From Candidatus Hatepunaea meridiana (GTDB lineage Bacteria; Electryoneota; AABM5-125-24; Hatepunaeales; Hatepunaeaceae): a DNA stretch of 64,000 nucleotides. Each line of letters begins with the position of its first letter. Position 1 is the stretch's first letter. The stretch is taken from NCBI GenBank assembly GCA_030765125.1, contig JAVCDD010000180.1, forward strand, positions 7,033-71,032, in the 5' to 3' direction. Below, in pieces: positions 51,070 through 62,233 of this stretch. The translations under genes were made by a program, and so were the position numbers. Below the pieces are notes generated by a model, which worked only from the letters and a program-made list of their open reading frames with translations, was not told where the DNA came from and did not search any database.

Positions 51070-54000
51070 ATGAACCGATTAACTCTATCTTTACTACTGT
51101 CTTTAATACTCACTTCTTACACAACAGCTTACGAGGGTCCTACATCATCAGCAGATCCGCATGCAGCAATCATCTCTTCCAGCGACCAGGCAATCCGCAT
51201 AGGTTTCGAGCTTGCCGACCTGGAAGTTCGGGAGGTCGTCAAAGATGACGAAACCTTTGATGCTCACATCCTGACCGGTGAGGGAACAACTTATGATTAC
51301 GGCAAACCGTTACTGCCTGCGATTAATAGATTCGTTGTCGTTCCTCCTCAATCGGCGCTCGAGTTGGTCATTGAGGCTGATGAGCCTCGTTGCATGCCTG
51401 CTTCAAATCCTCCGGCGCTATGCACCAATGATAACATCACGGGTTCGATTTGGGGAAATCTGCGCGAAAATGCCGTCTACCCCCCTGTTATAGCTGAAAT
51501 GAGCGAACCTACTATTATTCGGGGTGTTCGGATGGTCAAGATAACAACATATCCGATTCAATACAACCCCGTTACCAACGAATACCTGCACCGGGATCAC
51601 ATCCGTACCGAGATCCAGTTCAGCGACGGGGATCCAATCAATCCGGTCGAACATCCGGAACGCAGACACCGTAGCCAGACATTCCTTAAAGTTATCGAGA
51701 ACATGGCAATTAATGGCGATCAGGTCAGAAGAGACCAGCCGCCTGACGTCGAACCTCCCTATGTAGGGCATTATTGCGTAGTAACTAATTCACTTTGTTT
51801 GCAGTATATCCAGCCATTTATAGAATGGAGGCGTAAATCCGGTTATAAAGTCGACATTATCAGCCTCTCCGGTGGTAGCGCTACGAATGCTAACGGAATC
51901 AAGAATGCTATTCAGAACTTATACGATGAATACGATGAGAATGGTATTGATCCATTTGAATATCTGTTATTAGTAGGTGATCGTAGTGCCTATTCCTATT
52001 CCCCACCTGTTGGTTGGCAACTTGCAGCTCCAGCGGGGAATTCCTCCTGGGGTGGAGCACCTCACGCTGATTATGAGCTCGGTCTTCTCGAGGGCAATGA
52101 TATTCATCCTGACGTTGGTATTGGCAGATGGTGGGTTGGTCAACCAGACAAGCTCCAGCTTGCGGTCGGTAGAACATTGAACTATGAAGCAACCCCTTAT
52201 ATGGATGATACCGATTGGTTCAATGCTGCCGGAGCATTCTCACAACATTGGGGAAACCAGGCAAATATCGCCTGGCATATAACCATTCATACTACAGTCC
52301 GATGGGGTAAGGAAGTCTTAGAACACTTAGGTTATGAAGACGTGCGCACCTATGAACGGTATCAACATGATCAGATGGGTGGTGAGATTGGACCCGTTCT
52401 CACACGATGGTTTAATGATGGTATGAGCATTATGGTAGGCAGGGGGGAATTGTACAACTGGCGAAATAGCTTTGGAGGTGTGAATAATAGAAATGTTAAT
52501 CCTATTTTTATAACATTCAGCGGGCATGGTGAGTGGGCTTGTGAAGCAATGACCAGGACCGGTAACGGTAATAACACGATTGGTCCGGTAAATATGACCT
52601 GCGGTTGGGGCTGGAGTGTAATTCCGACAACTAATGCTATGTGGCTGGAGCTTGTCAATGCTGTTCTTGTCAAAGATATTCCAATGGGATGGGCATACTG
52701 TTCCGCTATTACCTTATTTGAGCTTTATTTTCCAAACGTAGCGGCTCATCGAAATACCATGCTTTATCCCAATATAAAAACAGACAACATACACTTCGGT
52801 GATCCAGGAATACTGCCCTGGATAGGCGTTCCGAGAGTCGTGGAAGCTGATTTTCCTGAAACTATTACCGATCACACAAGCACAATTTTAGTACACGTCT
52901 CAGAAGGAGAAAATGATACTGCTGTCGAAGGCGCTCAGGTTACGTTGTATGCACCTGGTGATATCCCTGATGCAGATGATAACGACTACGCTGAATATGA
53001 TGATATAAGTATGCTGACAACGTTAAGCGATGAAGATGGAAATGCCCGTTTTGTGCTTGAAGATGACTTTATATTAGAGAATGGAACAACCGCATACATA
53101 ACCGTTACCGGACGGGATATAAAACCATACTTTGGTGAGATAGACATCGAGGATCCGGACGTTGCAATTGAGATAGCCGAGTATGAATTGATTGAAGTTG
53201 ATGGTAATGATGATGATGAAGTCAATCCCGGTGAGACCTTCAGACTTGAGATCACTGCTGCTAACGTAGGTGGTGATGAAACCGCAGAAGATGTAACCGC
53301 TGTTGTTCGAACCCTCTCATCCTGGATTGAGGTCGAAAATCGTGATATTACCTTCGGTGATATTGAGGAGGGAGAAGAAGTTGAGGGAGACGGTGAAGTC
53401 AATCTGATTATATCCCCGGCTTGCCCTGATGGCGCCAGTCGTCCAATCACCAGACCTGAAATATTAATTACATTCGCAAGCGATGACATTGAATGGGAAT
53501 CTGCAATTGTGCTAACTCCTGAAGCACCGAACTATGAGGTTAAGGAGATAGTCGGTAATGACATCCTTGAAGTCGGCGCCCGCGATTTTGATGTTGAAAT
53601 AGAAAACATAGGAAGTCAAAACGGTCCCGCAGTTACCGCTGAATTATTTACCATCGGTATGGGCGCCAGTGTTGTTAACTCTGAATCCAGTTATCCATCA
53701 ATCCGAACAGGCAGATCCAGCCGACTATCCGGCAACGATTTCATCATTTCGGGCAACCGCCTTTCAGTTCCTGGATATATAAATGAGATGATGCTGATAT
53801 TTACAACTGAAGACGGCTTTAACGATACGGCGTACTTTGAGATTCAGGTGCGCGAACCGATGGATAACACTCCTATTGGACCGGATCCTTATGGTTATAT
53901 CTGCTTTGACGATACCGACGAAGGATGGGATATTTCCCCTGCTTATCGTTGGGTTGAGATAAGCCCGCGTGAAGATGAATTTGATTTTCGCGGGGAGCGG

Positions 54001-62233: not shown

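What the first reader, a model, noticed from the sequence alone, without database searches (positions are those of the whole stretch)
51070..62233. Tandem gingipain-like paralogues that both appear to lack the canonical His/Cys dyad and that share payload domains with the 4817-aa gene
The comparison is a by-eye alignment to my recollection of RgpB (..FNGGISLVNYTGHGSETAW.. and ..LPFIFDVACVNGDF..).
- The 1830-aa protein has FNDGMSIMVGRGELYNW and NPIFITFSGHGEWAC, so GHG becomes GRG and AC becomes SG. An SGHG...AC lies just downstream and could be a shifted dyad.
- The second paralogue has EEGVSLALGEGWLYD and HPFVIANLSYYEQQ, so GHG becomes GEG and AC becomes LS.

Both also carry the DxYGYICFD...F(T/Y)xxFYGxxY...TNGFI domain (payload A type) and a propeller-like region (payload B type). 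They may be pseudo-peptidase scaffolds, or enzymes with a relocated active site.
Basis: partly seen in the sequence, partly recalled or inferred. Interest (0 to 1): 0.6.

Follow-up and report, generated by a model that had tools for sequence, protein, structure and literature searches.

The report
Gingipain-like surface proteins without catalytic dyad
Two neighbouring giant secreted proteins carry a gingipain-type protease domain that has lost the catalytic cysteine and histidine, and they belong to a large, unstudied family in sediment bacteria that genome annotation still labels as active proteases.

Summary
ORF1 (51070-56562, 1830 aa) and ORF2 (true start 56885, 1782 aa) are full-length paralogues (25% identity, E 4e-100). 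Each has a signal peptide, a gingipain prodomain and C25-fold head, Ig-like, NIDO-like, CarboxypepD_reg and propeller modules, and a type IX secretion tail.

- ORF1: His211 maps to Glu460 (alternatively Arg458), and Cys244 to Ser484.
- ORF2: His211 maps to Trp494 (alternatively Glu492), and Cys244 to Ser525.

The proposed shifted dyad fails. His486 is about 90% conserved, but no Cys column is conserved.

ORF1 belongs to a clade of about 130 sequences in Calditrichota/Electryoneota genomes, with up to 13 loci per genome. This clade keeps a remodelled pocket (Q392-H393-W394, R458, E460, H486, E488), so the site is still under selection. The ORF2 clade keeps nothing there. It lies directly downstream of an ORF1-like gene in six further loci.

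Most likely these are non-thiol pseudo-peptidase heads on surface adhesin or capture proteins. A new non-cysteine enzyme remains possible for ORF1. The module sharing with the 4817-aa gene is real at profile level.

The parts
51070..56562 (+). ORF1, 1830 aa, a giant T9SS cargo protein with a gingipain-like head
51070..51129 (+). ORF1 signal peptide (MNRLTLSLLLSLILTSYTTA), boundary approximate
   Evidence: read directly from the translation
51148..51630 (+). ORF1 gingipain-type prodomain (Propeptide_C25, residues 27-187)
   Evidence: Pfam E 1.9e-14. The family profile matches the RgpB prodomain 4ief_A at E 1e-15.
51409..51435 (+). Prodomain loop PPALCTNDN (residues 114-122). It aligns with the RgpB inhibitory loop around Arg126. 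In the clade, position 120 is acidic in 90 and position 121 in 74 of 130 sequences.
51751..52869 (+). ORF1 C25-fold (gingipain-like) domain, residues 228-600, without the Cys/His dyad
52243..52251 (+). Q392-H393-W394 (SQHWGN motif) at the position of RgpB Glu152. Clade frequencies: Q 88%, H 72% (R/K 18%), W 93%.
52441..52449 (+). R458-G459-E460, equivalent to RgpB Thr209-Gly210-His211. Arg is 93% conserved; position 460 is E 68% / Q 20%.
52519..52536 (+). S484-G-H486-G-E488-W489, equivalent to RgpB Cys244-Val-Asn-Gly-Asp-Phe. Position 484 is S 53% / A 21% / C 10% / G 9%; H486 is about 90%; E488 is 81%.
52873..53874 (+). ORF1 Ig-like / CARDB-like region (residues 602-935)
   Evidence: the profile built from relatives also hits ORF2 at 658-976, E 4e-66
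53863..54606 (+).
   Evidence: weak Pfam NIDO match. The profile hits the 4817-aa protein twice.
54613..54864 (+). ORF1 CarboxypepD_reg domain
   Evidence: Pfam E 5e-8
54856..55944 (+).
   Evidence: the profile hits the 4817-aa protein at 466-845, 1459-1821 and 2923-3293, E 4e-13 to 2e-14. The 4817-aa protein has a Pfam SGL propeller match at 3012-3093.
56290..56559 (+). ORF1 type IX secretion C-terminal sorting domain
   Evidence: Pfam Por_Secre_tail 1e-9 and TIGR04183 1.5e-10
56733..56772 (+). Intrinsic-terminator hairpin plus U7 between ORF1 and ORF2
   Evidence: dG -20.8 kcal/mol, z -5.2, 0 of 200 shuffles fold as well; sequence
56885..62233 (+). ORF2, 1782 aa from ATG 56885, a paralogue of ORF1 with the same architecture
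57632..58834 (+). ORF2 C25-fold domain (residues 250-650), with no conserved polar site
   Evidence: AF2 pLDDT 83.2 and pTM 0.86. Foldseek to RgpB: E 1.5e-17, TM 0.67.
58355..58366 (+). G491-E492-G493-W494 after strand SLALG. Trp494 sits at the RgpB His211 position; Glu492 sits where relatives have Arg.
58451..58465 (+). N523-L-S525-Y-Y after strand FVIA. Ser525 sits at the RgpB Cys244 position.
59804..60520 (+). ORF2 NIDO-like domain, the most conserved part among ORF2 orthologues (47-57% identity)
60824..61930 (+). ORF2 propeller + Ig module
   Evidence: E 4e-81
61967..62230 (+). ORF2 type IX secretion C-terminal sorting domain
35641..50094 (-). Divergently transcribed 4817-aa T9SS protein. 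It shares the NIDO-like (x2), propeller+Ig (x3) and CTD modules but has no C25 head.

Best explanation
ORF1 and ORF2 are two separately transcribed, anciently duplicated members of a family of giant type IX secretion cargo proteins from an FCB-group bacterium (Calditrichota / Ca. Electryoneota). The proteins are probably exported, lose the C-terminal sorting domain and become attached to the cell surface, which would put the N-terminal gingipain-like head outermost. That export and anchoring route is inferred from the CTD alone.

The head (prodomain plus C25 fold) is homologous to RgpB/Kgp but has lost the Cys-His dyad, so neither protein is a cysteine peptidase.

In the ORF1 lineage the former active-site cleft is still under strong selection with a new residue set: Gln392-His393-Trp394, Arg458, Glu460, His486, Glu488 and Trp513. 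This set tolerates Ala or Gly at the former nucleophile position. I infer that it works as a ligand-binding pocket. It may hold an anionic or glycan/peptide ligand, or the protein's own acidic prodomain loop.

In the ORF2 lineage no polar residue of the cleft is conserved, so the head is a purely structural pseudo-peptidase.

Together with the Ig-like, NIDO-like, CarboxypepD_reg and propeller modules that they share with the neighbouring 4817-aa protein, the two proteins most likely act as surface adhesin or substrate-capture proteins rather than as proteases.

Shown: homology, fold, loss of the dyad, conservation patterns and the conserved gene pair. Inferred: surface anchoring, binding function and the prodomain latch.
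For: Homology and fold:
- Pfam C25 and the propeptide match.
- The family profile aligns over the whole RgpB catalytic domain, E 4e-12.
- hhalign gives 99.2% probability.

Loss of the dyad:
- Cys244 maps to Ser484 in all three methods.
- His211 maps to Glu460 by MAFFT and by transitive alignment through Y-R-G-H relatives, or to Arg458 by HMMER and hhalign.
- ORF2 has Trp494 and Ser525 at these positions.
- No Cys column is conserved among 130 clade members.

Selection on the ORF1 site:
- H332 96-98%, R458 93%, H486 about 90%, W394 93%, Q392 88%, E488 81%.
- 102 of 123 complete members keep R458 + H486 + [ED]488 + [EQ]460.
- Position 484 is A or G in about 30%, which argues against a nucleophile there.

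ORF2 clade: residues at 458/460/484/486 differ between orthologues. The domain is nevertheless as conserved as the other domains, at 29-51% identity.

Conserved pair: an ORF2-like gene lies directly downstream of an ORF1-like gene in L003/4, L005, L021, L041, L052 and L054.

Family size and expansion:
- 931 cluster representatives at E<1e-30.
- 63 genome loci, up to 13 per MAG, often in tandem.

Surface context:
- Five CTD proteins lie in the window.
- Two further giant Ig/propeller proteins are adjacent.

Separate transcription: a terminator lies between the genes.
Against: - No coordinates were available, so the spatial clustering of the conserved residues rests on sequence equivalence to RgpB active-site positions and on their location at the C-terminal ends of the strands. 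It was not measured.
- Strong conservation of His, Glu, Arg and Ser/Cys exactly at and around the old catalytic positions is also what an enzyme with new chemistry would show.
- Ser or Cys occupies position 484 in 63% of members.
- Binding function, ligand and surface anchoring are untested.
- The taxonomic restriction partly reflects the narrow search pattern used.
Confidence: 0.6

Rival explanations
1. The ORF1-type head is still an enzyme whose catalytic centre was rebuilt inside the C25 fold without cysteine. Candidates are a Ser484/His486/Glu460-type triad, a metal- or water-based centre using His486 plus His393 or His487 with Glu460/Glu488, or a two-carboxylate glycosidase-like site. ORF2 would be its dead partner.
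For: - The new residues sit at or next to the old catalytic positions and are 80-98% conserved.
- Ser and Cys interchange at position 484, with 82 of 130 sequences having one or the other.
- His393 and His487 are almost mutually exclusive (87 versus 14, 1 with both). R/K at 393 goes with H/Q at 487, Fisher p 1e-15. This pattern would fit a fixed number of ligands in one site.
- The prodomain is retained, as in zymogens.
Against: - Position 484 is Ala or Gly in about 30% of members that keep the rest of the motif.
- E460 is Gln in 20%.
- The covariation is not corrected for phylogeny and may reflect a single subclade.
- No match was found to any known non-cysteine hydrolase family.
- There is no experimental evidence.
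Confidence: 0.25
2. The canonical dyad is present but misaligned, for example the reader's shifted pair His486 with Cys491 or Cys511, so the proteins are ordinary cysteine peptidases.
For: - ORF1 itself has SGHGEWAC and NMTCGWG close to the Cys strand.
- Clan CD spacing between His and Cys varies.
Against: - Cys491 is present in 8% and Cys511 in 31% of the clade, and no Cys column exceeds 65%.
- The secondary structure of the model matches RgpB element by element. GHGEW follows the strand that carries Cys244, and NMTC lies in the next strand, which corresponds to RgpB GTVAIIAST.
- ORF2 has no candidate pair at all.
Confidence: 0.03
3. The genes are decaying relics (pseudogenes) of former proteases.
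For: - The catalytic residues are lost.
- About 13% of clade paralogues have also lost R458 or H486.
- One relative is split at a G8 run.
Against: - Both ORFs are intact over about 5.4 kb.
- Orthologues of both exist in several genomes with all domains present.
- The ORF2 head is as conserved as the other domains.
- Both heads give confident fold predictions.
- The split in L003 looks like a homopolymer assembly error.
Confidence: 0.02

Closest known systems
Gingipains RgpB and Kgp of Porphyromonas gingivalis (MEROPS C25, Pfam PF01364; PDB 1CVR, 4IEF, 4RBM)
   Same: - N-terminal prodomain, two-subdomain C25 alpha/beta fold, following Ig-like domain and T9SS C-terminal domain.
- Many core residues are shared: GD, D93, G101, D103, R112, YE, W141 and GDP.
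   Different: - The catalytic His211 and Cys244 and the S1 Asp163 are all replaced.
- Arg stands at the Thr209 position.
- The proteins are about 1800 aa and carry NIDO-like, CarboxypepD_reg and propeller modules instead of haemagglutinin/adhesin domains.
- The hosts are Calditrichota/Electryoneota rather than Bacteroidota.
PorU, the T9SS sortase (C25 family; NCBIfam NF033707; PDB 6ZA2)
   Same: Clan CD / C25 fold and a T9SS C-terminal domain.
   Different: - PorU keeps the Cys/His dyad (Cys690) and has a conserved Arg722 that lies 32 residues after the Cys (PMC4560394).
- ORF1 and ORF2 score 20 bits against a 420-bit cutoff, and only in the CTD.
- The conserved Arg here lies 26 residues before the Cys position.
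Catalytically dead clan CD homologues such as the c-FLIP protease-like domain (pseudo-caspase)
   Different: There is no close homology. These proteins are extracellular and bacterial, and no heterodimer with an active partner has been shown here.
T9SS-dependent M6-like inactivated metalloprotease (NCBIfam NF052323)
   Same: This curated family is a precedent for T9SS cargo carrying an inactivated protease domain. It matches here only through the shared CTD.
   Different: It has an unrelated protease fold (M6 metalloprotease). The similarity is one of concept, not homology.

Membership tests
Peptidase C25 (gingipain) family - homology | Significant match to the family profile (PF01364) | tested here: met
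   ORF1 E 3.6e-20 (73 bits against a 23-bit cutoff); ORF2 E 9.7e-10 (38.6 bits). Both matches end before the catalytic strands.
Peptidase C25 (gingipain) family - homology | Gingipain two-subdomain alpha/beta fold | tested here: met
Peptidase C25 - active cysteine peptidase | Catalytic His at the C-terminal end of the strand (RgpB His211) | tested here: not met
   ORF1 has Glu460 there (alternative alignment: Arg458). ORF2 has Trp494 (alternative: Glu492).
Peptidase C25 - active cysteine peptidase | Catalytic Cys at the end of the next strand (RgpB Cys244) | tested here: not met
   ORF1 has Ser484 and ORF2 has Ser525 in all alignments. No Cys column is conserved in the clade.
Peptidase C25 - active cysteine peptidase | S1 specificity residue (Asp163 in RgpB) | tested here: not met
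   In the Asp163 column, only RgpB itself has Asp among 144 aligned sequences.
Peptidase C25 - gingipain architecture | N-terminal Propeptide_C25 prodomain | tested here: met
   ORF1: Pfam E 1.9e-14, and the family profile matches 4ief_A at E 1e-15. ORF2 is supported only by alignment to ORF1 and by its orthologue P0079 matching profile positions 24-736.
T9SS type A cargo | C-terminal sorting domain (Por_Secre_tail / TIGR04183) | tested here: met
   ORF1 1.5e-10; ORF2 2e-8.
T9SS type A cargo | Export through the T9SS and removal of the CTD | not testable with these tools
   Needs proteomics or genetics.
PorU sortase (NF033707) | Score above the curated cutoff over the catalytic domain | tested here: not met
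   20.3 bits against a 420-bit cutoff, matching the CTD only.
Pseudo-peptidase (non-peptidase homologue of a peptidase family) | Fold retained, catalytic residues lost, gene intact and conserved across genomes | tested here: met
   Lack of activity itself was not tested.

The most novel reading that the evidence does not exclude
The ORF1-type head is a new kind of enzyme. In this reading a clan CD (gingipain/caspase) fold has had its Cys-His dyad replaced by a conserved non-thiol centre (Glu460, His486, Glu488, His393 or His487, Arg458, Trp lid). It would catalyse hydrolysis of peptides or glycans on the cell surface of sediment bacteria, with a charge-swapped prodomain latch in which the acidic loop 118-122 docks onto Arg458.
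Probability: 0.2. Interest if true: 0.75.

Novelty: new variant of a known kind. Interest (0 to 1): 0.45.

Why it matters
- Annotation. NCBI names close relatives 'C25 family cysteine peptidase'. Sediment metagenome studies count C25 'gingipain' ORFs, including Calditrichaeota ones, as abundant extracellular peptidases (PMC6365825). Among the 143 closest cluster representatives with a full domain, only 7 keep both catalytic residues and 74 keep neither. Such counts may therefore overestimate proteolytic potential.
- Evolution. The family offers a graded series within one fold and often within one genome:
  - canonical dyad;
  - Cys only, with another conserved His;
  - a remodelled non-thiol pocket;
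  - a fully degenerate site.
  This is useful material for studying how enzymes turn into binding modules or acquire new chemistry.
- Experimental access. One MAG labelled Caldithrix abyssi carries members. If the cultured type strain does too, the questions could be tested experimentally.

Tried and rejected
- **Word-index searches undercounted the family.** They returned only 15, 1 and 6 relatives and suggested a tiny family. The exhaustive profile search showed thousands.
- **PorU membership rejected**. The conserved Arg is not PorU Arg722.
- **Shifted dyad His486 + Cys491/Cys511 rejected**.
- **Ser484 as a universal nucleophile rejected**, because about 30% of members have Ala or Gly there.
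It was rerun without them.
- **AFDB Foldseek library was not available**.
- **No model coordinates are returned**, so distances in the pocket and docking of the prodomain loop could not be measured.
- **Rfam found nothing in the window**.
- **The promoter/terminator scan was at background level** and missed the real hairpin, which was found by eye and confirmed by folding.
- **Literature searches** for this family in Calditrichota, or for dead C25 homologues, found nothing specific.
- **dN/dS was not attempted**, because the closest orthologues are only 50-68% identical and synonymous sites would be saturated.
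Full report
**1. What is at the coordinates**

The region holds two long ORFs on the + strand. ORF1 is 51070-56562 (1830 aa). The second ORF is listed from TTG 56819. Its translation shows a typical signal peptide starting at the ATG at 56885 (MSKKTILLLAFIIFLTLTLF), with GGAGA 5 nt upstream. I therefore treat ORF2 as 56885-62233 (1782 aa).

The two proteins align over their whole length at 25% identity, E 4e-100.

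Pfam and NCBIfam find the following:
- in both: Peptidase_C25, CarboxypepD_reg and a type IX secretion C-terminal sorting domain;
- in ORF1 only: Propeptide_C25 and a weak NIDO match.

The Pfam C25 matches stop short of the catalytic part of the model. ORF1 residues 235-456 cover profile positions 1-234 of 374, and ORF2 residues 272-424 cover 12-163.

**2. Catalytic positions**

A profile of ORF1 and its first 15 relatives (A1) aligns with the whole RgpB catalytic domain in the PDB (residues 8-373, E 4e-12). It also matches the RgpB and Kgp prodomains. I read the RgpB sequence off that output and checked its numbering: YTGH211GS, DVAC244VN, E152 and D163.

| Method | RgpB Cys244 equals | RgpB His211 equals |
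|---|---|---|
| HMMER profile vs PDB | Ser484 in the 4ief alignment; about two residues earlier in the 1cvr alignment | Arg458, after a two-residue gap |
| hhalign, 99.2% probability | ORF1 Ser484 (TF-S-GHGEW) | Arg458, after a two-residue gap |
| MAFFT L-INS-i with 143 relatives | ORF1 Ser484 | Glu460, with the segment FNxGxS...G ungapped |

The MAFFT solution is supported by more distant relatives that read N-Y-R-G-H/W/Y against RgpB N-Y-T-G-H. It is also supported by a direct phmmer alignment of one of them (P0130) with RgpB, which gives Y=Y, R=T209, G=G210, W=H211 and C=C244. In either solution the residue is not His.

In ORF2 the corresponding residues are Glu492-Gly-Trp494 and Ser525.

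The AlphaFold model of ORF1 residues 220-620 (pLDDT 81.6, pTM 0.85) has strands at 454-458 (IMVGR) and 479-483 (IFITF), followed by helix 487-496 and strand 508-511. This is the same order as the RgpB elements ISLANYT, FIFDVAC, the helix CFAEALMRA and the strand GTVAIIAST.

Structural comparison with RgpB:

|---|---|---|
| ORF2 head (pLDDT 83.2) | TM 0.67, E 1.5e-17 | not run |

**3. The family**

Word-index searches found few relatives. An exhaustive profile search found 9015 cluster representatives at E<1e-3 and 931 at E<1e-30. The top 150 are mostly 1300-2000 aa, which suggests proteins of similar size and build.

A genome scan returned 63 loci in 14 species-level genomes. All are labelled Calditrichota, Caldithrix or 'AABM5-125-24', or are unlabelled MAGs. 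There are up to 13 loci per genome, and three copies often sit in a row on one contig. Named close relatives are from Calditrichota and Ca. Electryoneaceae, both in the FCB group.

I aligned all sequences to the A1 profile. I defined the ORF1 clade as the 130 non-identical sequences that score above about 700 bits or rank among the first 66 hits.

**4. State of the old active site in the ORF1 clade**

| ORF1 position | RgpB equivalent | Residues in the clade |
|---|---|---|
| Arg458 | Thr209 | R 93% |
| Gly459 | Gly210 | mostly A |
| Glu460 | His211 | E 68%, Q 20% |
| Ser484 | Cys244 | S 53%, A 21%, C 10%, G 9% |
| Gly485 | Val245 | G 88% |
| His486 | Asn246 | H about 90% |
| Glu488 | Asp248 | E 81% |
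| Trp489 | Phe249 | aromatic 80% |
| Gln392 / His393 / Trp394 | region of Glu152 | Q 88% / H 72% (R/K 18%) / W 93% |
| His332 / Asp334 | Lys91 / Asp93 | H 96-98% / D 96% |
| Trp513-Gly514 | loop that carries the RgpB Trp284 lid | 87% each |

- 102 of 123 complete members keep R458 + H486 + [ED]488 + [EQ]460.
- No Cys column in the domain exceeds 65%. Cys491 is at 8% and Cys511 at 31%.
- His393 and His487 are nearly mutually exclusive: 87 have His393 only, 14 have His487 only, 1 has both and 21 have neither. R/K at 393 goes with A/G at 484 and with H/Q at 487 (Fisher p 1e-15). This test is not corrected for phylogeny, so it may reflect one subclade.

A review of clan CD structures (PMC4357240) states that the RgpB dyad lies at the C-terminal ends of two strands. 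It also states that Asp163, Gly210, Gly212, Gln282 and Trp284 bind the P1 arginine. The conserved residues of the ORF1 clade occupy these same segments. The Asp163 column contains Asp only in RgpB itself.

The cleft is therefore conserved but chemically different, and it does not need a nucleophile at position 484.

**5. The ORF2 clade**

The ORF2 clade comprises ORF2, P0016, P0079, P0141 and six ORFs in fetched loci. At the same positions it shows:

| Position | Residues seen |
|---|---|
| 458 | E / D |
| 460 | W / M / T / Y / A |
| 484 | S / T / A |
| 486 | Y / F / S |

Nothing is conserved there. The head is nevertheless no more divergent than the other domains, at 29-51% identity between orthologues. 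The NIDO-like domain is the most conserved, at 47-57%. The AF2 model is confident. This is the pattern of a structural pseudo-peptidase.

**6. Gene pair**

An ORF2-like gene lies directly downstream of an ORF1-like gene on the same strand in L003/L004, L005, L021, L041, L052 and L054, as in the window. This is not the case in L001.

In the window the two genes are separated by 322 bp containing a strong hairpin plus U7 (56733-56772; dG -20.8 kcal/mol, z -5.2). A sigma-70-like site and a ribosome-binding site lie before ORF2. They are therefore probably separate transcripts. Why the order is kept is unexplained.

**7. Shared modules**

Profiles built from the relatives give the following hits:

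| Module | Hits in the 4817-aa protein (35641-50094, - strand) |
|---|---|
| NIDO-like | 87-229 (1e-10); 2013-2166 (7e-15) |
| Propeller + Ig | 466-845; 1459-1821; 2923-3293 (4e-13 to 2e-14) |
| CTD | also found in the genes at 27068-30409 and 31069-34227 |

The ORF of more than 6634 aa at 3-19904 (-) has none of these modules. It consists of HYDIN/ASH-type Ig domains and LVIVD propeller repeats. The locus is thus a cluster of giant surface proteins.

**8. Prodomain**

The RgpB inhibitory loop (..GVISR126AEN..) inserts Arg126 into the S1 pocket onto Asp163 (PMC4357240). This loop aligns with PP[ALV][LIV]C-x-[DE]-[ED] in the ORF1 clade; ORF1 itself has PPALCTNDN at 114-122. Position 120 is acidic in 90 and position 121 in 74 of 130 sequences.

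The pocket has lost Asp163 and gained Arg458, so a charge-swapped latch is conceivable. This is an inference only.

Arg221-Asp222 at the junction of prodomain and head is 98-99% conserved. It lies about where RgpB is processed (Arg229).

**9. Interpretation**

*Firm conclusions.* Both proteins are C25 homologues with the gingipain fold and a T9SS tail. Neither has the Cys-His dyad. The 'SGHG...AC' shifted dyad is not supported.

*Likely (0.6).* The heads are non-proteolytic. ORF1's head is a conserved binding pocket and ORF2's is a scaffold. Both sit on surface adhesin or capture proteins.

*Open (0.25).* ORF1-type heads may be enzymes with non-thiol chemistry.

*Not PorU.* PorU keeps the dyad and has its conserved Arg 32 residues after the Cys (PMC4560394). 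The scores are far below the family cutoff.

**10. Novelty and significance**

I found no description of this clade. Dead homologues of peptidases are a known phenomenon, and NCBIfam already curates a T9SS 'inactivated metalloprotease'. The finding is therefore a new variant of a known kind.

Its practical weight is for annotation. Relatives are named 'C25 family cysteine peptidase', and C25 ORFs are counted as extracellular peptidases in sediment studies (PMC6365825). Among the 143 closest cluster representatives with a full domain:

| Catalytic residues kept | Number of representatives |
|---|---|
| Both His211 and Cys244 | 7 |
| Cys244 only | 54 |
| His211 only | 8 |
| Neither | 74 |

Noticed in passing
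relatives P0080-P0158 (not in the window); also L016:1838-7699 and L032 (- strand, 6506-10192): A wider group of about 1700-aa T9SS C25 proteins keeps Cys244 but has Trp, Tyr or Phe at the His211 position. It has Arg at the Thr209 position (134 of 143 sequences). It also carries another conserved His, in 'G.T-HT.YNN' in the loop after the next strand, which corresponds to the RgpB 278-282 S1 loop. This may be a relocated catalytic His. The group is only weakly PorU-like (40-62 bits against a 420-bit cutoff).
   Followed up: partly
window 3-19904 (- strand): An ORF of more than 6634 aa, open at the window start. It consists of arrays of HYDIN/ASH/Cep192-type Ig-like domains, LVIVD beta-propeller repeats, Big_9 and Cadherin_5 domains. 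It has no NIDO-like or C25 module.
   Followed up: partly
window 56733-56772: A strong intrinsic-terminator hairpin (14 bp stem, U7; dG -20.8 kcal/mol, z -5.2) between ORF1 and ORF2. The consensus scan missed it.
   Followed up: yes
window 56568-56602: A GTGGTGTC-like octamer is repeated about four times directly after the ORF1 stop codon. Its function is unknown.
   Followed up: no
window 50154-50169, 50726-50747, 50890-50903, 63812-63825: Short GC-rich palindromes that all have a TTCA loop (for example GCGCTTCAGCGC, AGCCTTCAGGCT, AACCTTCAGGTT). Three lie in the 41%-GC divergent intergenic region between the 4817-aa gene and ORF1, and one lies near the window end. They could be a small repeated element or terminators.
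   Followed up: no
window 51409-51435 and 52441-52443: The prodomain loop aligned with the RgpB inhibitory loop is acidic in the clade, while the pocket has Arg458 and lacks Asp163. This suggests a possible charge-swapped prodomain latch.
   Followed up: partly
window 51730-51735 (ORF1 Arg221-Asp222): An Arg-Asp pair at the junction of prodomain and head is 98-99% conserved in the clade. It lies about where RgpB is cleaved (Arg229) and is a candidate processing site for a protease acting in trans.
   Followed up: no
L003:4364-9875 (same in L004): The ORF1-like gene upstream of the ORF2-like gene is split into 410-aa and 1436-aa calls at a run of eight G. This is probably an assembly indel rather than a real frameshift.
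   Followed up: partly
window 20784-25176 (- strand): A housekeeping-type block lies next to the surface-protein cluster. It contains a radical SAM/SPASM protein, an Oxidored_FMN + Pyr_redox_2 (NADH:flavin oxidoreductase-type) protein, and a ParA/NUBPL-type P-loop protein fused to a dinitrogenase FeMo-cofactor-binding domain.
   Followed up: no
window 27068-30409 (-) and 31069-34227 (+): Two more T9SS tail proteins. One has a right-handed beta-helix (NosD/pectate-lyase-like). The other has no recognisable domain apart from the tail. Beta-helix T9SS proteins also lie near the ORF2-like gene in L001.
   Followed up: no
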